Shown here in pieces: positions 7,729 through 11,666 of a DNA stretch of 57,275 nt. The notes below the pieces were generated by a model, which made no database searches, had not been told where the DNA came from, and worked only from the letters and a program-made list of their open reading frames with translations. Positions within the stretch are counted from its first letter, which is position 1. Every line of letters begins with the position of its first letter. Source of the stretch: a virus; the IMG/VR virus record IMGVR_UViG_3300035008_000001, positions 1 through 57,275 of that record, one strand, 5' to 3'. A program made the translations under genes and the position numbers.

Positions 7729-8094
7729 GTGGATAGCAAGGGCGGAAGAATCGAAATCACCATCAATGGCCGGGTCTATTCAGGTCGAGGCGAGGCGACG
7801 ATCAAGCCTGCGCGCGCGACCCGTACGAACGGCGCGAACATGGACGGCACTGGCTTCAGCTATGTCGAGCCAAAGCTGGCCTCAGCGTCCCTCTCGTTCG
7901 ATCGAGGGATCGACCTCAAGTGGGACGAGTCGATGATGTTGCAGAGCCTCGATGTAACTTTTGTCGAAACGGATGCCGGGAACCGCCAGCACTTTTTCTC
8001 GCGGGCACGGTGGGCGGGAGAGCCAGAAATAAACACTTCGACTGGCGAGGTGACGGGTCTGACGATTGAGACCGACAGCTACCAGGTACATTAG
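7729..8094 (+). CDS. Tail tube protein (Mu gpM-like)
   Basis: 121 aa, GTG start, follows the sheath. Confidence 0.7.
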   Translation: MDSKGGRIEITINGRVYSGRGEATIKPARATRTNGANMDGTGFSYVEPKLASASLSFDRGIDLKWDESMMLQSLDVTFVETDAGNRQHFFSRARWAGEPEINTSTGEVTGLTIETDSYQVH

Positions 8095-8360
8095 CCCTCG
8101 GCGTCGGAGCGCTTAGCCTGCCGACGCGCTGTAGCCTCTTTGGTCAAGCGTACGCTGCCATCTTCCTGGAAGATTGCCCCACGCTCTTCGAGAGCAGCCT
8201 GAAGGGCACGTAAGGTCGACGTAATCGCGGGCTGCCCGGATTCTATTCGGGATATGGTGTTCGGGGCCACACTCGCAGCTTCAGCCAGTTCCCGCACACT
8301 TAATCCGATCCCTGCTCGTGCCATGCGGATTTGGTGACCATCAGCTAAAGATTGCGACAT
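8091..8360 (-). CDS. XRE-family HTH regulator
   Basis: 'IRMARAGIGLSVRELAEAASVAPNTISRIESGQ' is a classic HTH_3 motif. Its stop codon overlaps the tube stop by 4 nt (convergent genes). Confidence 0.85.
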   Translation of the reverse strand: MSQSLADGHQIRMARAGIGLSVRELAEAASVAPNTISRIESGQPAITSTLRALQAALEERGAIFQEDGSVRLTKEATARRQAKRSDAEG

Positions 8361-8390
8361 AGAACCAACTTTGCGCTTGCGTATCGTTCA

Positions 8391-8417
8391 CAACGTTGGT
8401 ACAGATTACCAACGTTG
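8391..8417. promoter_or_regulatory. Perfect palindromic operator (11-bp arms, 5-bp spacer) in the divergent XRE/operon promoter region
   Basis: caacgttggta-cagat-taccaacgttg, about 30 nt upstream of the XRE start. Confidence 0.7.
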
Positions 8418-8489
8418 CTAGAAAATGCAACGGCCGCGATGGGTGCTTCCAACACCGACCGCGGCCTGACCCTCAACATGGAGCGACCC

Positions 8490-9152
8490 ATGTCTCTGGC
8501 TGAAGAACTATGTACCTCACGCCGCGGGTTTTTGGTAGCGGCAGCACCTGCAATAATGGCAGCCGGCATTGTATCAACCGGACTACCGGCCCAGGCCGCA
8601 CGAAACGATACCGATCTAGTCTCGCTCGGACAGCGCTTCGACGAGATCCATGCCCAGCATGATTCTGCATCGGCAGAAGAGAACCGTCTGTTCGCTCTGG
8701 TGGAAGAGAAACTTCCGGAGAGGCCGGGCAGCCTCCGGCGGCGGCCATCCGATTGGGATCTCTTCTTTGGAATGGCCGCGGGTGATAAGTTTTACAGCGC
8801 GGAAGACGTGATCTGGCTTCGATCCTTCCGTGGATTCGACAGCTCTAACGCCAGTCAGCGCTCGAAGGCCTGCGCGAGGGCAAGAGAAATCGTTGCGGCT
8901 TTCGATACTTGGCTAGGTGAAGTGAACCGCGTCGAGGCCGAGGTTGGCCTTCCAGAAAAAATGCGTCTCGTAGGCAGGCTCTACGAACAGAGGGAGAAGG
9001 TTGTCGAAGCCATTGAGTCTGCCAGAATTGCCTCATTCGCTGGTGTGGCCGTCAAAGCAAGGGTTGCCGCGTCGATGCGTGACCAAGCATTGGCCCTGAA
9101 GGTCGCTGAAGAAATCGCCGCCCTCCACACGACGGAGGTGCGTCATGGCTAA
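8490..9152 (+). CDS. Tat-exported helical protein, unknown function (alternative starts at 8439 and 8478)
   Basis: Canonical twin-arginine signal 'TSRRGFLVAAAPAIMAAGIVSTGLPAQA'. A GGAG lies 6 nt before the ATG at 8490. Confidence 0.65.
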   Translation: MSLAEELCTSRRGFLVAAAPAIMAAGIVSTGLPAQAARNDTDLVSLGQRFDEIHAQHDSASAEENRLFALVEEKLPERPGSLRRRPSDWDLFFGMAAGDKFYSAEDVIWLRSFRGFDSSNASQRSKACARAREIVAAFDTWLGEVNRVEAEVGLPEKMRLVGRLYEQREKVVEAIESARIASFAGVAVKARVAASMRDQALALKVAEEIAALHTTEVRHG

Positions 9153-9672
9153 GAGCAATACTGCTACTCAGGCGACCGAGCGCGATCTCGTGGCCGAGGC
9201 TGCCAAGACAGCGTATCTGAAGGCAGATGGCGATGTTCGAGAGGCTGTCCGGATCCTTGAAACGGCTGTACGCCAAGAGCGAGACCTGCGGGACGCTCTG
9301 ACTGACCCGCTGATCTCTCAGGCCTGCTACGATGCGGTACGGAAGCAGTGCCATGTCCAACGGCGACGTGTCTGGGCTCCCCCAGCTGAGAAGCTGGTTA
9401 AGAGCAAGGTGACGGGAGCGCACCGTGTCGTGCAGCTCGCCGCTGGAACTTTACTGATGTTCCCGCTTCCGGGCGGCAAGCGCCTCGGAGAGGCGTCTAG
9501 AGAAGAGATTGCATCTGCCGCAGAGTTCTACGAGCGGCAGGCTGGCGACATGGCGACGAAAGGGCGTTGGCTGCGTCTCATCGCTCAGTCAGTGCCAGGA
9601 GATCAAACGGTTGGCGATGTGCTGACCGATGAAAGATTGCGTGAGCTCCAAGAGGAGGCCCGCAATGGATAA
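9145..9672 (+). CDS. Hypothetical protein, translationally coupled to its neighbours
   Basis: The ATG at 9145 overlaps the upstream gene's end by 8 nt. 175 aa. Confidence 0.6.
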   Translation: MAKSNTATQATERDLVAEAAKTAYLKADGDVREAVRILETAVRQERDLRDALTDPLISQACYDAVRKQCHVQRRRVWAPPAEKLVKSKVTGAHRVVQLAAGTLLMFPLPGGKRLGEASREEIASAAEFYERQAGDMATKGRWLRLIAQSVPGDQTVGDVLTDERLRELQEEARNG

Positions 9673-10525: not shown

Positions 10526-10532
10526 GAGGAAA

Positions 10533-10584
10533 GTGGGCTCGGCCTGGGGAAGATTGTCCACCGAACGTCACGTGCCGAGCCCAC
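10533..10584. other. 11-bp perfect inverted repeat between convergent island blocks (possible bidirectional terminator)
   Basis: gtgggctcggc (10533-10543) pairs with gccgagcccac (10574-10584), leaving a 30-nt loop. Confidence 0.35.
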
Positions 10585-10602
10585 CACTTTATGTATCGCA
10601 GT

Positions 10603-11217
10603 CTATGGGGCGGCTACCAAGCCTGAAGCCTCCATAAACTTCGCAATTGCTTTGTCAGGTTTGGACCAAGGGCCACCATAGTTCGCTCCTGTCGCTTGGA
10701 CACTCCAAGGGCGAGTGTTCGGACGAGAGCTGACCGGAACGAATTCGTTCCCGGAAAATGCATATTCATAAGCCAACGGTTTATAGGCTAATGCAACATC
10801 GGGATGTTTCTTTGGTTTTCCGTTCTTCAATAGGCGATGCAGGCCAAGTTGATGAAGGTTCTCCTCTTCAGAAAGAGTTACGTGCCAGCCAGCGGAAGCT
10901 AAATGGGTCATGAGCTGGCTGTGTACTTCCGATACAGTTTGCAGTGTAAGGATCGGGTTGGCCATCCCCAAATCCCATCGGATTTTAGTATCCTCTTTAT
11001 CGGTCGAAAAATCCCGGAGCTCAATCTTGGATAGGACAAATTCTTTGACGGCTCTAGAAGTATAGCATCGAGCTCTTACCTTATCGACCGACAATTGGAG
11101 TGGTATAATCTCTCTCATCGCTCCCGGATTGCTACCGCCGTGATACAGAATACGTAAGACCTCGCCGGTTTGCATTGCTTCTGAGAGTTTTTGCCGGACC
11201 TGCTCTATCATCGTCAT
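10603..11217 (-). CDS. WYL-like (SH3 beta-barrel) domain protein, unknown function
   Basis: 'VLRILYHGGSNPGAMREIIPLQLSVDKVRARCYTSRAVKEFVLSKIELRD' fits the WYL-domain pattern. A gaggggg RBS precedes the ATG at 11217. The coding sequence is AT-rich. Confidence 0.45.
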   Translation of the reverse strand: MTMIEQVRQKLSEAMQTGEVLRILYHGGSNPGAMREIIPLQLSVDKVRARCYTSRAVKEFVLSKIELRDFSTDKEDTKIRWDLGMANPILTLQTVSEVHSQLMTHLASAGWHVTLSEEENLHQLGLHRLLKNGKPKKHPDVALAYKPLAYEYAFSGNEFVPVSSRPNTRPWSVQATGANYGGPWSKPDKAIAKFMEASGLVAAP

Positions 11218-11316
11218 AAGCCCCCTCGTCGAGATATGGGAATTCAATAAATCACACATGCAGCTGTGCGTGGATGCAGAGTTTTTGGCGGAGAGGCGCC
11301 CCCAAAAGCACGGGGC

Positions 11317-11646
11317 TCATTTTGTCCGGACCATAGTAAGCGAACCGCGCTTGCCAGCCTCTGACAGCTCTAGTCCGCCGTTAGGCAAGACGTGCGCAAC
11401 GAAAGACTTTGACCCTATCGAGAACTCAATGCTCTGGCCCGTGATGCCTTTAAAGCTCAGAGGTCCTGAGATCTTCATGCCCCCGTCGACATAAGTCCCG
11501 GTGTTCCCGGAAAGATTCAGGGATAACGCGACTGCCACCGCACGGCCCTGCCACTCCCCATTGAGAGCTTGAGCGGCCTCTTCGAACGTGAATCCCATGA
11601 GCATGATGCTAGCGGCCCCGATGGCGACGGCGAGATATCGTTTCAT
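11317..11646 (-). CDS. Small Sec-exported protein
   Basis: N-terminal 'MKRYLAVAIGAASIMLMG' signal-like segment followed by a beta-rich remainder. AT-rich coding sequence. Confidence 0.55.
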   Translation of the reverse strand: MKRYLAVAIGAASIMLMGFTFEEAAQALNGEWQGRAVAVALSLNLSGNTGTYVDGGMKISGPLSFKGITGQSIEFSIGSKSFVAHVLPNGGLELSEAGKRGSLTMVRTK

Positions 11647-11666
11647 ACAGACCTCTGGAAAGACAC

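What the first reader, a model, noticed from the sequence alone, without database searches (positions are those of the whole stretch)
8091..11666. Six-gene accessory island wedged between the tail tube and tail chaperone genes
Seen:
- The tube gene stops at 8094 and the next structural gene (chaperone) starts at 11667.
- Six non-structural ORFs lie between them, in two opposed blocks (8091-10525 and 10603-11646).
- The tube stop overlaps the stop of a convergent XRE gene by 4 nt.
- The last island gene starts only 20 nt from the chaperone start, so there is no spare intergenic DNA at either edge.
- Hand counts give 27/60 G+C at 11011-11070, versus 39/60 and 43/60 in capsid and TMP lines.

Established: in Mu-, P2- and lambda-type tail modules, the tube, G/GT chaperone and tape measure genes are normally contiguous and co-transcribed.

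Inference: this is a horizontally acquired moron island. Its products are an XRE regulator, a Tat-exported protein, an unknown protein, a Tnp-domain-only protein, a WYL-like protein and a Sec-exported protein. They do not match any defence or exclusion system I can name, so it is a candidate new superinfection-exclusion or defence module. Late tail transcription would have to run antisense through about 1 kb of the right block, which could couple island expression to the lysogeny/lysis state.
Basis: partly seen in the sequence, partly recalled or inferred. Interest (0 to 1): 0.75.

Follow-up and report, generated by a model that had tools for sequence, protein, structure and literature searches.

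The report
Prophage tail island carrying TIGR-TasA
The DNA wedged between a prophage's tail tube and tail chaperone genes is swappable cargo whose core is a recently described RNA-guided DNA-binding system (TIGR-TasA), and one of its three guide RNAs matches the tail sheath gene of closely related rival phages but not the prophage's own copy.

Summary
A 3.57-kb block of six non-structural genes lies between tube (stop 8094) and tail chaperone (start 11667). Two related phages have only 17-21 nt there; three others carry different cargo, so the junction is a cargo hotspot.

The "Tnp-domain-only" gene is TasA, the nuclease-free effector of TIGR-Tas (NCBIfam E=5e-28; Foldseek top hits TasR/TasH). 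Three stem-loop guide RNAs with the family's box C/box D layout (CCA-N9-YG-N4-CCA-N9-YG) lie on its strand: two inside its disordered 5' coding region and one after its stop. A covariance model built only from other loci ranks them first, second and sixth in the window.

The 175-aa upstream gene accompanies tasA in 16 of 19 loci and has no known fold.

Guide U3, in the published two-strand geometry, matches 18/18 the sheath gene 3' end of two related, TasA-free phages, and 16-17/18 in four more. The resident sheath gene has 5 mismatches. Controls gave at best 2 mismatches.

Most likely function: RNA-guided blocking of related phages. The low-GC right block (WYL-like plus secreted protein) remains unexplained. 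This is a new member of a known kind, with an unusually clear natural target.

The parts
7645..7662 (+). Resident sheath-gene site homologous to the U3 target (AACATCACCGTTTTCCCT). It has 5 of 18 mismatches to guide U3.
   Evidence: the sheath gene is 6157-7695
7729..8094 (+). Tail tube gene, the left flank of the island. It is a divergent allele, about 59% aa identical to relatives.
   Evidence: Pfam PF10618 3e-15; tblastn
8091..8360 (-). XRE-family HTH regulator, transcribed divergently from the tasA operon.
   Evidence: HTH_3 1.3e-7; an XRE homolog sits at the same cassette position in L008; RHH regulators sit at that position in L010-L012
8361..8477 (.). Divergent control region with a perfect 11-bp inverted repeat, CAACGTTGGTA-5-TACCAACGTTG (8391-8417). 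It is a candidate XRE operator (inference).
8478..9152 (+). Tat-signal protein (TSRRGFLV...AQA). It is positionally conserved but fast-evolving, and is the first gene of the operon.
   Evidence: Tat-signal ORFs lie upstream of p175 in L008, L010, L011 and L012
9145..9672 (+). p175, a conserved TasA-associated helical protein of unknown fold. It overlaps both neighbouring genes by 8 nt.
   Evidence: directly upstream of tas in 16 of 19 loci; 1,934 representatives; AF2 pLDDT 85 with no PDB fold match
9665..10525 (+). tasA, the nuclease-free TIGR-associated Nop-domain protein (286 aa). Residues 1-50 are disordered.
   Evidence: NF052498 4.8e-28; PDB 9mty 6e-12; Foldseek top hits TasR/TasH; AF2 model
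9701..9751 (+). tigRNA unit U1, inside tasA codons 13-29. The stem is 5+5 bp with a 1-nt bulge. Sequence: CCA-AGTCATTCG-TG-CGCC-CCA-TAGGAGCAT-CG.
   Evidence: CM 14.8 bits, E 0.56; exact relaxed motif; fold z -3.1
9785..9838 (+). tigRNA unit U2, inside tasA codons 41-58. The stem is 12 bp including two G.U pairs. Sequence: CCA-TTTCAACAA-TG-TTCC-CCA-CGGGCATGT-TG.
   Evidence: CM 34.7 bits, E 3e-5; the only exact motif hit in the window, 0.11 expected; fold z -3.9 on + versus -0.2 on -
10533..10584 (+). tigRNA unit U3, just after the tasA stop. The stem is a perfect 11 bp. Sequence: CCT-GGGGAAGAT-TG-TCCA-CCG-AACGTCACG-TG. Both spacers match the sheath gene of related phages.
   Evidence: CM 22.2 bits, E 0.015; 18/18 target match; controls
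10603..11259 (-). wyl218, a rare phage protein (phrog_8498) with a weak WYL-like N-terminus. Low G+C. Function unknown.
11317..11646 (-). sec109, a small protein with an N-terminal signal-peptide-like segment. A 54%-identical homolog sits in the same position next to the chaperone in L001.
11667..12121 (+). Tail assembly chaperone, the right flank (11667-12005). It has a -1 frameshift extension from the T7 slippery run at 11972-11978 to TGA 12119-12121.

Best explanation
The tube/chaperone junction of this myovirus-type prophage is a cargo hotspot, and here it holds two unrelated inserts.

The left insert (8091-10590) is a TIGR-TasA cassette. An XRE regulator faces a translationally coupled operon: Tat-signal protein, then p175, then tasA. 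The operon RNA carries three stem-loop guide units, two inside the disordered 5' coding part of tasA and one after its stop.

Inferred from published TasA work: each unit is trimmed to a hairpin of about 50 nt. A TasA dimer holds it by its CCA (box C) and UG (box D) motifs. The two 9-nt spacers pair with opposite strands of a contiguous 18-bp DNA site. TasA has no nuclease domain, so the complex would bind, bend and block the DNA rather than cut it.

Shown here: guide U3 is a perfect match to the 3' end of the tail sheath gene of related phages that lack the cassette, whereas the resident sheath gene differs at 5 of 18 positions.

The most likely function is therefore RNA-guided interference with competing relatives, whether superinfecting phages or co-resident prophages. 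A roadblock at that site would stall the late tail operon (sheath > tube > chaperone > tape measure > baseplate) or replication.

p175 is a dedicated partner of unknown role. The right insert (wyl218 plus sec109) is separate low-GC cargo of unknown function.
For: Hotspot:
- The site is empty in L004 and L006 (17 and 21 nt gaps) and in L044.
- Other cargo sits there in L005, L007 and L001.

TasA identity:
- NCBIfam TIGR_Tas_endo gives E 4.8e-28, 98.6 bits; the IS110 model gives only 39.8 bits against a cut-off of 140.
- By sequence, PDB 9mty scores E 6e-12.
- In the AF2 model, residues 1-50 are disordered and the rest is helical. The Foldseek top nine hits are TasR/TasH (prob 1.0), ahead of IS621/ISCro4.

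Guide RNAs:
- In 30 tas loci, hairpins with exactly 30-nt loops are enriched (91 against about 35 for neighbouring loop lengths).
- 66 units from 17 loci share C|CA-N9-YG-N4-CCA-N9-Y|G, with variable palindromic stems and variable spacers.
- A covariance model built without the window ranks U2 and U3 first and second in 57 kb, and U1 sixth.
- The same two-plus-one layout occurs in Bosea vaviloviae L038, which was not in the model.
- Tas-free relatives have no hits.
- The 9-nt inter-spacer loop, the intragenic placement in a disordered N-terminus and the CCA/UG boxes all match published descriptions.

Target:
- U3 spacer A plus the reverse complement of spacer B, with no gap, matches 18/18 in L004. 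It matches 17/18 in L005 and L006, and 16/18 in L007.
- An IMG/VR scan, checked for sheath context, adds L044 (18/18) and L047 (17/18). Five of its 13 database hits fall at the same sheath codons.
- 132 foreign-unit tests and 300 random tests never did better than 2 mismatches. The analytic expectation for a perfect match in the searched space is about 5e-5.
- This orientation is the one that gives the published 8-nt 3' overhangs under the C-5 rule.
- Self has 5 mismatches.

Operon:
- The genes overlap by 8 nt, at ATGGCTAA and ATGGATAA.

Published function:
- TasA acts as an RNA-guided repressor in reporter assays and EMSA.
Against: - No expression, processing or binding data exist for this locus.
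- U3 has non-consensus box C motifs (CCU and CCG in place of CCA), so TasA may bind it poorly. Its perfect stem could also act as a terminator between the convergent genes.
- U1 alone is weak (CM E 0.56, bulged stem).
- U1 and U2 have no identifiable targets. The best match in the window has 4 mismatches, the best in the loci 3 or more, and there is no exact 18-mer in IMG/VR.
- The 5 self mismatches equal ordinary divergence: the sheath genes are 84% nt identical and 19% of 18-nt windows differ as much. There is therefore no signature of selected escape.
- Exact 18-mers have a background of about 2 hits per pattern in IMG/VR. The significance of the U3 target thus rests on the restricted, related search space.
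- TasR gave no phage protection in E. coli in Faure et al..
- The NCBIfam score is 1.4 bits below the curated cut-off.
Confidence: 0.7

Rival explanations
1. The TasA guides regulate the resident prophage or host genes, for example lysis/lysogeny timing or host silencing, rather than attacking competitors. On this reading the sheath match reflects an ancestral self-regulatory site.
For: Xu et al. list viral life-cycle regulation and host silencing as open possibilities. The U3 site lies in the phage family's own late operon. Read on the other strand, the predicted U1 target looks like an RBS plus ATG.
Against: No site in the 57-kb window matches any of the three guides with fewer than 3 mismatches, which is chance level. 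The resident sheath site has 5 mismatches, including spacer B position 4, which is next to the published seed. The rest of the host genome could not be searched.
Confidence: 0.12
2. The cassette behaves as a selfish, homing-like element. TasA-U3 binds cassette-free relatives about 0.45 kb upstream of the empty tube/chaperone site. By stalling replication or bending the DNA, it promotes recombination that copies the cassette, together with the linked divergent tube allele, into the rival genome.
For: Both perfect-match targets (L004, L044) and one 17/18 target (L006) have empty insertion sites. A mosaic joint lies at the sheath 3' end and tube: sheath is 91-93% aa identical but tube only 59%. 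Faure et al. speculate that TasA-induced DNA bending could aid recombination. The cassette occurs at different tail-gene junctions in other prophages.
Against: TasA has no nuclease domain, and no recombinase is linked to it. Only six related loci were available. Proximity of the target to the insertion site could be coincidental, and nothing shows that the cassette moves on its own.
Confidence: 0.08
3. All six genes form one new multi-gene defence or exclusion system.
For: The genes are packed tightly with no spare DNA at the edges. WYL domains and XRE regulators often accompany defence systems, and PADLOC gives weak WYL and HTH hits.
Against: The left four genes travel together without wyl218 or sec109 in L008, L010-L012, L038 and L039. 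sec109 occurs without the cassette in L001. wyl218 homologs have no conserved neighbours. G+C differs between the two blocks. PADLOC finds no system-specific model.
Confidence: 0.05
4. The 298-aa ORF is a decayed IS110-family transposase, and the hairpins are chance or terminator structures.
For: There is a weak Pfam Transposase_20 hit (E 0.0045). JGI names the protein 'transposase'.
Against: - There is no DEDD/RuvC domain, and the IS110 model scores 39.8 bits against a cut-off of 140.
- More than 900 intact homologs share a conserved core.
- The fold is closest to TasR/TasH.
- The hairpins have an invariant 30-nt loop with box C/D motifs across 17 loci, and an independent covariance model finds them.
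- A guide matches a phage gene in split, opposite-strand geometry that a simple sequence remnant cannot produce.
Confidence: 0.02

Closest known systems
Stem-loop TIGR-TasA systems (Peromyscus gut PlTasA, Bifidobacterium longum BlTasA, Minisyncoccota MbTasA; Faure et al. 2025 PMC12045711; Xu et al. 2026 bioRxiv 10.64898/2026.09.09.750476; Guan et al. 2026 bioRxiv 10.64898/2026.08.11.744272)
   Same: - The effector is a solo Nop domain with a coiled coil and a disordered N-terminus.
- Guide units are hairpins whose loop holds two 9-nt spacers, each preceded by CCA and followed by UG, with a 9-nt inter-spacer segment.
- Units lie upstream of, downstream of and inside the tas coding sequence, in disordered regions.
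- The system resides in a phage or prophage.
   Different: - There are only three units here.
- A conserved 175-aa partner gene (p175) is translationally coupled to tasA, whereas Faure et al. state that TasA lacks clear protein associations apart from tasParB.
- A Tat-signal protein and a small regulator complete the cassette.
- The cassette sits inside tail-gene operons.
- A natural target can be named.
- The conserved CUU at the stem base is seen only after U3.
TasR / TasH (dual-repeat TIGR nucleases; PDB 9mty, 9vzx, 9w04)
   Same: They are the best structural matches (TM 0.54-0.69, prob 1.0). They use the same tandem-spacer logic, and the U3 target obeys the spacer A plus reverse-complement spacer B arrangement deduced from TasR cleavage.
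   Different: There is no RuvC or HNH domain here. The guide has a hairpin architecture instead of 36-nt dual-repeat units, so the predicted outcome is binding and repression, not cleavage.
IS110/IS1111 bridge-RNA recombinases (IS621, ISCro4)
   Same: They share a homologous RNA-binding C-terminal (Nop-like) domain and a split guide that reads both DNA strands.
   Different: There is no DEDD catalytic domain, no single bridge RNA with target and donor loops, and no transposon ends. The curated IS110 model score is far below its cut-off.
Moron and defence hotspots in temperate phages (P2/P4 hotspots, Rousset et al. 2022; P22 immI and sieA in the late region; own knowledge)
   Same: Variable accessory genes are inserted between conserved structural genes, with presence/absence polymorphism among close relatives, autonomous regulators and atypical G+C. 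The cargo at this junction in L001 is itself immI-like (Arc, Arc, Ant).
   Different: The position, between tube and G/GT chaperone, is unusual. The cargo is an RNA-guided DNA binder rather than a protein-only exclusion system.
Nuclease-free CRISPR interference between mobile elements (type IV, type V-M; own knowledge and the discussion in Faure et al.)
   Same: A mobile-element-borne, RNA-guided, non-cutting system directed against competing mobile elements.
   Different: The protein family is unrelated. Recognition is an 18-bp split across two strands without a PAM, and no adaptation genes are present.

Membership tests
TIGR-Tas system | A Tas protein with the Nop-type RNA-binding domain (coiled coil plus C-terminal domain) | tested here: met
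   NF052498 gives E 4.8e-28 at 98.6 bits, which is 1.4 bits under the curated cut-off of 100. phmmer to 9mty gives 6e-12. The AF2 model's top nine Foldseek hits are TasR/TasH, prob 1.0, TM 0.54-0.69.
TIGR-Tas system | An adjacent or embedded TIGR array: units with two 8-12-nt spacers, each flanked by box C (CCA) and box D (UG) | tested here: met
   U2 is an exact CCA-N9-TG-N4-CCA-N9-TG, the only such match in 57 kb with 0.11 expected. U1 fits with CG as its last box D. U3 has the same geometry with CCU/CCG boxes. An independent covariance model ranks U2 and U3 first and second, and U1 sixth.
TIGR-Tas system, stem-loop class | Variable palindromic stems closing each unit, with an inter-spacer loop of about 9 nt | tested here: met
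   The stems are 10-12 bp and fold with z -3.1 to -3.9. In 66 units from other loci, 9 of 10 stem pairs covary, although these units were selected for having stems. The inter-spacer segment TG+N4+CCA is 9 nt, as stated in Xu et al..
TIGR-Tas system, stem-loop class | A conserved CUU at the stem base that marks the processing site | tested here: inconclusive
   CUU follows the stem of U3 (CAC-CUU-UAU) only. It was not seen at U1 or U2. Some related loci have CTT at the 5' base of the stem.
TasA subtype | No HNH or RuvC nuclease domain | tested here: met
   The conserved core starts at residue ~51. Residues 1-50 are disordered and hypervariable. There are no nuclease hits in Pfam or NCBIfam.
TIGR-Tas system | Units are transcribed and processed into discrete tigRNAs bound by Tas | not testable with these tools
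   This needs small-RNA sequencing or an RNP pull-down.
TIGR-Tas system | Tandem-spacer targeting: spacer A and spacer B pair with opposite strands of one contiguous site | tested here: met
   This is shown in silico only. U3 spacer A plus the reverse complement of spacer B, with no gap, matches 18/18 in the sheath genes of L004 and L044. Controls never did better than 2 mismatches. Binding itself was not tested.
IS110-family transposase | An N-terminal DEDD (RuvC-like) catalytic domain and a full-length match to the family model | tested here: not met
   There is no PF01548 hit. NF033542 scores 39.8 bits against a cut-off of 140. The N-terminus is a 50-residue disordered segment.
Known anti-phage defence systems (PADLOC-DB v2) | A system-specific protein model hit | tested here: not met
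   Only generic HTH (RmrA N-terminus) and weak WYL hits were found. This database predates TIGR-Tas.
Phage moron / cargo hotspot | Presence/absence and cargo polymorphism at the same junction among close relatives | tested here: met
   L004, L006 and L044 are empty. L005 carries one 119-aa membrane protein, L007 carries Rha plus a secreted protein, and L001 carries 6.2 kb including Arc/Arc/Ant.
Tail assembly chaperone (G/GT type), the right flank | A slippery sequence near the 3' end and a -1 frame extension ending at the tape-measure gene | tested here: met
   The T7 run lies at 11972-11978. The -1 frame stays open for 49 codons to TGA 12119-12121, which overlaps the TMP ATG at 12118.
tasParB-associated TasA loci | A ParB-like partner gene in an operon with tasA | tested here: not met
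   p175 has no ParB hit or any other hit in Pfam or NCBIfam. Its confident AF2 model (pLDDT 85) has no PDB fold match, best E 2.1.

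The most novel reading that the evidence does not exclude
This TasA clade may be a distinct multi-component subtype.
- The fold-orphan protein p175 (about 1,900 family representatives), and possibly the positionally conserved Tat-signal protein, would be obligate partners of a guide-in-gene TasA.
- The cassette would act as a selfish competitor-suppressing or homing-like element of tail operons. It would guide TasA to the sheath gene of cassette-free relatives, right next to the empty insertion site.
- Because two guides sit inside the tasA coding sequence, each transcript would yield either guide or protein, which would self-limit the system.
Probability: 0.3. Interest if true: 0.85.

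Novelty: new member of a known kind. Interest (0 to 1): 0.72.

Why it matters
TIGR-Tas systems were described only in 2025, and their natural role is an acknowledged open question. The published papers say that natural spacer targets mostly cannot be determined and that native-host studies are needed.

This locus offers a compact system with three guides. It lies in a prophage whose nearest genome match is a Microvirga (alphaproteobacterial) strain. One guide points at a specific, conserved site in the sheath gene of the prophage's own relatives, while the resident copy is mismatched.

That makes the hypothesis of RNA-guided competition between phages directly testable with one lysogen, one related phage and point mutants.

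The locus also flags a widespread partner protein (p175) that is not mentioned in the two main TIGR-Tas papers I could read. In addition, it shows that the tube/chaperone junction can serve as a cargo hotspot.

Tried and rejected
- DNA similarity of 7700-12100 to GenBank phages: no match.
- Tandem Repeats Finder and generic repeat search: no array found. TIGR stem-loop arrays lack repeated sequence, so only the two hairpins with 30-nt loops gave the lead.
- PADLOC: no system.
- Self-targets of U1-U3 in the window, in both arrangements with gaps of 0-3: chance level only.
- Exact 18-mers of the U1 and U2 targets in IMG/VR: none.
- 16-mer cores of the U1 and U2 targets: 53 and 14 hits, all in unrelated phages. 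The U1 hits cluster at RBS/ATG contexts and look like motif background.
- Accelerated divergence at the resident copy of the U3 site: not supported, because 19% of 18-nt windows differ as much.
- p175 as a ParB-like or otherwise known fold: rejected.
- wyl218: no PDB sequence hit, only five homologs by word search, and no conserved neighbours. It is not detectably related to the WYL protein at the same place in L001.
- sec109: no relatives in IMG/VR.
- Identifying the source record of the window by exact protein look-up: failed.
- Sigma-70 promoter and terminator scans of the island: not above shuffled expectation.
- A third candidate hairpin at 10617-10664 (28-nt loop): rejected, because it lacks the box motifs and is not among the covariance-model hits.

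Full report
**1. Observation**

The window begins with a myovirus-type prophage. In order it encodes portal, protease, major head protein, sheath (6157-7695), tube (7729-8094), chaperone (11667-12005), tape measure (12118-14181), baseplate hub, wedge and fibre proteins.

Six ORFs occupy the 3,572 nt between the tube stop and the chaperone start:
- XRE regulator, 8091-8360 (-).
- A Tat-signal protein: ORF 8352-9152 (+), with a plausible start at 8478 or 8490 ahead of TSRRGFLV...AQA.
- A 175-aa protein, 9145-9672 (+), here called p175.
- A 298-aa ORF, 9629-10525 (+). The public gene call is 286 aa from 9665.
- A 218-aa ORF, 10603-11259 (-). The public call is 204 aa.
- A 109-aa ORF, 11317-11646 (-), with a signal-peptide-like N-terminus.

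The 4-nt overlap of the tube and XRE stops, the 20-nt gap before the chaperone, and the G+C dip (0.51-0.52 at 10501-11500 against about 0.62) are all real. The layout is three units rather than two. XRE diverges from the plus-strand trio, whose genes overlap by 8 nt each, and that trio converges on the minus-strand pair.

The identity of the right flank is secure. It has a T7 slippery run at 11972-11978, and a -1 frame that stays open to a TGA overlapping the tape-measure ATG. This is the classical G/GT arrangement.

**2. Is it an insertion?**

The sheath protein recovered one genome locus (Microvirga zambiensis WSM3693, L001) and four viral contigs (L004-L007) with 85-93% identity. Their tube-to-chaperone spacing differs widely:
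- L004: 17 nt. L006: 21 nt.
- L005: about 300 nt, holding one 119-aa membrane protein.
- L007: 1.7 kb, holding a Rha-type regulator and a secreted protein.
- L001: 6.2 kb, including two Arc-like repressors, an AntA/KilAC antirepressor, a WYL protein and a 54%-identical homolog of the 109-aa secreted protein, again directly beside the chaperone.

The junction is therefore a cargo hotspot, and the island is accessory. None of the six products matches a tail PHROG.

**3. The 'Tnp-domain-only' protein is TasA**

- Pfam gives only a weak Transposase_20 hit.
- NCBIfam's TIGR-Tas endonuclease model matches residues 144-292 at E 4.8e-28 and 98.6 bits (cut-off 100). The IS110 model scores 39.8 bits against 140.
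- The best PDB sequence match is 9mty, the TasR-tigRNA-DNA complex.
- An AlphaFold2 model built on 20 homologs has a disordered first 50 residues, followed by a confident all-helical coiled coil plus C-terminal domain.
- Its nine best Foldseek matches are TasR and TasH complexes. IS621/ISCro4 recombinases and Nop5/Prp31 follow further down.

There is no room for a nuclease domain and no hit to one. This defines the TasA subtype (Faure et al. 2025). Homologs are numerous (more than 900) in Bosea, Methylobacterium, Microvirga and metagenomes. They vary mainly in the N- and C-terminal tails.

**4. The guide RNAs**

Repeat finders saw nothing array-like. However, two hairpins with exactly 30-nt loops stood out, one inside the 5' part of the gene and one after its stop.

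I collected 30 tas loci from viral and metagenome contigs. Across them, hairpins with 30-nt loops are about 2.5-fold over-represented. Sixty-six units from 17 loci align without gaps to C|CA-N9-YG-N4-CCA-N9-Y|G. The closing C-G pair and the G of box D are invariant, while the stems and the two 9-nt spacers vary freely.

This is the published stem-loop TIGR architecture: box C is CCA, box D is UG, there are two spacers of 8-12 nt, and the inter-spacer loop is about 9 nt. Units may lie inside tas in disordered regions.

I built a covariance model from those 66 units, without any window sequence, and searched the whole window with filters off:

| Unit | Model hit | Bits | E-value | Rank |
|---|---|---|---|---|
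| U2 | 9787-9836 (+) | 34.7 | 3e-5 | 1 |
| U3 | 10534-10583 (+) | 22.2 | 0.015 | 2 |
| U1 | 9702-9750 (+) | 14.8 | 0.56 | 6 |

- U2 is the only exact match in the window to CCA-N9-TG-N4-CCA-N9-TG, where 0.11 is expected.
- U1 fits the same motif when Y is allowed in box D. Its stem is 5+5 bp with one bulge.
- All three fold with z-scores of -3.1 to -3.9. U2 folds well only on the plus strand, because two of its pairs are G.U.
- The same layout, two units in the 5' coding region and one at the 3' end, occurs in Bosea vaviloviae (L038), which was not used for the model. The tas-free sheath relatives give no hits.
- At the orthologous hairpin, proteins that are 68-77% identical carry entirely different spacers. 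This is the behaviour expected of guides.
- U3 deviates at the third base of both box C motifs (CCU, CCG). Such variants occur in about 5-10% of units elsewhere.

**5. The cassette**

p175 lies immediately upstream of tas in 16 of the 19 confident tas loci that have at least 600 nt of upstream sequence. This includes distant members reached through p175 itself:
- In Phenylobacterium immobile (L039), at least five units are embedded in a 388-aa tas gene.
- In L040, eleven tandem units directly follow p175.

A profile search finds 1,934 cluster representatives of p175. Its model is confident (pLDDT 85) and helical, with no PDB fold match. It is therefore not the ParB-like partner reported for some TasA loci. 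Faure et al. state that TasA otherwise lacks clear protein associations.

In the five closest loci a Tat-signal protein precedes p175, and a small regulator faces it. The regulator is an XRE here and in L008, and ribbon-helix-helix-like elsewhere. The Tat proteins are barely alignable with each other.

The cassette sits in tail modules elsewhere too:
- Between the tape measure and a Dit-like protein in Bosea vaviloviae.
- Between the chaperone and the tape measure, together with HigBA, in Phenylobacterium.
- Ahead of baseplate genes, together with HigBA, in L008.

wyl218 and sec109 do not travel with the cassette. wyl218 is a rare phage protein (phrog_8498) with five homologs by word search, no conserved neighbours and only weak WYL similarity.

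**6. A natural target**

Published TasR data are an 8-nt 3' overhang and cleavage five bases from box C. They imply that one DNA strand of the target reads spacer A followed directly by the reverse complement of spacer B.

I searched both possible arrangements. The window holds nothing better than 3 mismatches, which is chance level.

Among the fetched loci, however, U3 in exactly that arrangement and with no gap matches as follows:

| Locus | Position | Match to U3 |
|---|---|---|
| L004 | 2741-2758 | 18/18 |
| L005 | 11489-11506 | 17/18 |
| L006 | 11483-11500 | 17/18 |
| L007 | 2569-2586 | 16/18 |

- Every site is the same piece of the sheath gene, codons N-V-T-I-F-P, 33-50 nt before its stop.
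- The resident sheath gene reads AACATCACCGTTTTCCCT at 7645-7662, with 5 mismatches. L001 has 4 mismatches.
- A scan of IMG/VR for the target and its two one-base variants found 13 contigs. Five carry it at the same sheath codons. These include two further relatives: L044 (18/18, empty tube/chaperone junction) and L047 (17/18). The other eight are unrelated background.
- In the same 555-kb search space, 132 tests with guides from other loci and 300 random 9+9 targets never did better than 2 mismatches. From base composition, the expected number of perfect hits is about 5e-5.
- The match is split and inverted: spacer B equals the coding strand, and spacer A is complementary to it. A copied fragment of the sheath gene cannot explain this arrangement.

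There are two cautions. First, the resident site's divergence is no greater than the gene-wide 84% identity predicts, so it separates self from non-self without proving selection. Second, U1 and U2 have no identifiable targets.

**7. Mechanism**

Shown: the parts list, their conservation, and the sequence relationship between U3 and the rival sheath genes.

Inferred from published TasA biochemistry: a TasA dimer loaded with a hairpin guide opens an 18-bp site, pairs with both strands, bends the DNA and blocks transcription without cutting. At the end of the sheath gene this would stall the late operon ahead of tube, chaperone, tape measure and baseplate, or impede replication. A related phage that superinfects or co-resides would then be handicapped.

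Further inferences:
- The XRE and the perfect palindrome at 8391-8417 probably set expression in the lysogen.
- Because U1 and U2 lie in the tasA coding sequence, excising them destroys the message. This may balance the ratio of guide to protein, an idea also raised by Xu et al.

The roles of p175, the Tat-signal protein, wyl218 and sec109 are unknown. So is the way chaperone and TMP are transcribed across the convergent right block.

**8. Verdict**

The island is real and accessory. Its core belongs to the known TIGR-Tas family (stem-loop TasA class), so it is not a categorically new system.

It is nevertheless a valuable member of that family. It is small, it lies in a prophage whose nearest genome match is a Microvirga strain, it has a conserved partner protein that the two main TIGR-Tas papers read here do not mention, and one of its guides has a nameable natural target in rival phages.

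Noticed in passing
window 11972-12121: The tail chaperone has a classical -1 programmed frameshift signal: a T7 run at 11972-11978, with the -1 frame open for 49 codons to a TGA that overlaps the tape-measure ATG at 12118.
   Followed up: yes
window 7729-8094, compared with L001 and L004-L007: The tube protein is only about 59% identical to the tubes of all five relatives, which resemble each other. The adjacent sheath is 85-93% identical. A mosaic joint therefore lies at the sheath 3' end or tube, close to the U3 target site.
   Followed up: partly
window 9712-9741 (U1 spacers): Read on the opposite strand, the predicted U1 target is TAGGAGCATCGAATGACT: a Shine-Dalgarno-like AGGAG, 6 nt, then ATG. 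Its 16-mer core hits 53 IMG/VR contigs. These are all unrelated phages, several clusters of them at apparent gene starts, so this is probably motif background.
   Followed up: partly
L001 11941-18137: In the Microvirga zambiensis prophage the same junction carries a P22 immI-like set (two Arc-like repressors plus an AntA/KilAC antirepressor). It also carries a Tat-signal protein, a WYL protein and the sec109 homolog.
   Followed up: partly
L008 7352-8061; L039 8736-9437: A HigB/HigA toxin-antitoxin pair lies directly downstream of the p175-tasA cassette in two unrelated prophages.
   Followed up: no
L040 1570-2169: Eleven tandem tigRNA units directly follow a distant p175 homolog. The source annotation calls this stretch a 269-aa ORF.
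   Followed up: partly
window 8478-9152; L008 4906-5307; L010 3707-4180; L011 3294-4259; L012 3885-4475: A protein with a twin-arginine signal motif precedes p175 in all five closest cassettes, yet these proteins are barely alignable with one another. They are conserved in position but not in sequence.
   Followed up: partly
window 14185-14658 and 14655-15374: The two halves of the phrog_184 baseplate-hub profile are encoded by two overlapping ORFs. The relatives also give separate hits for the two ORFs, so this looks like the normal state rather than a disruption.
   Followed up: no
window 8391-8417: A perfect 11-bp inverted repeat, CAACGTTGGTA-5-TACCAACGTTG, lies in the XRE/operon divergent region. 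A second imperfect palindrome lies at 8432-8466. Both are candidate operators.
   Followed up: no
L029, L030, L033: Three confident tas loci with ample upstream sequence lack p175. L029, L030 and L019 show no units detectable with the 30-nt-loop model. The clade is therefore not uniform.
   Followed up: no
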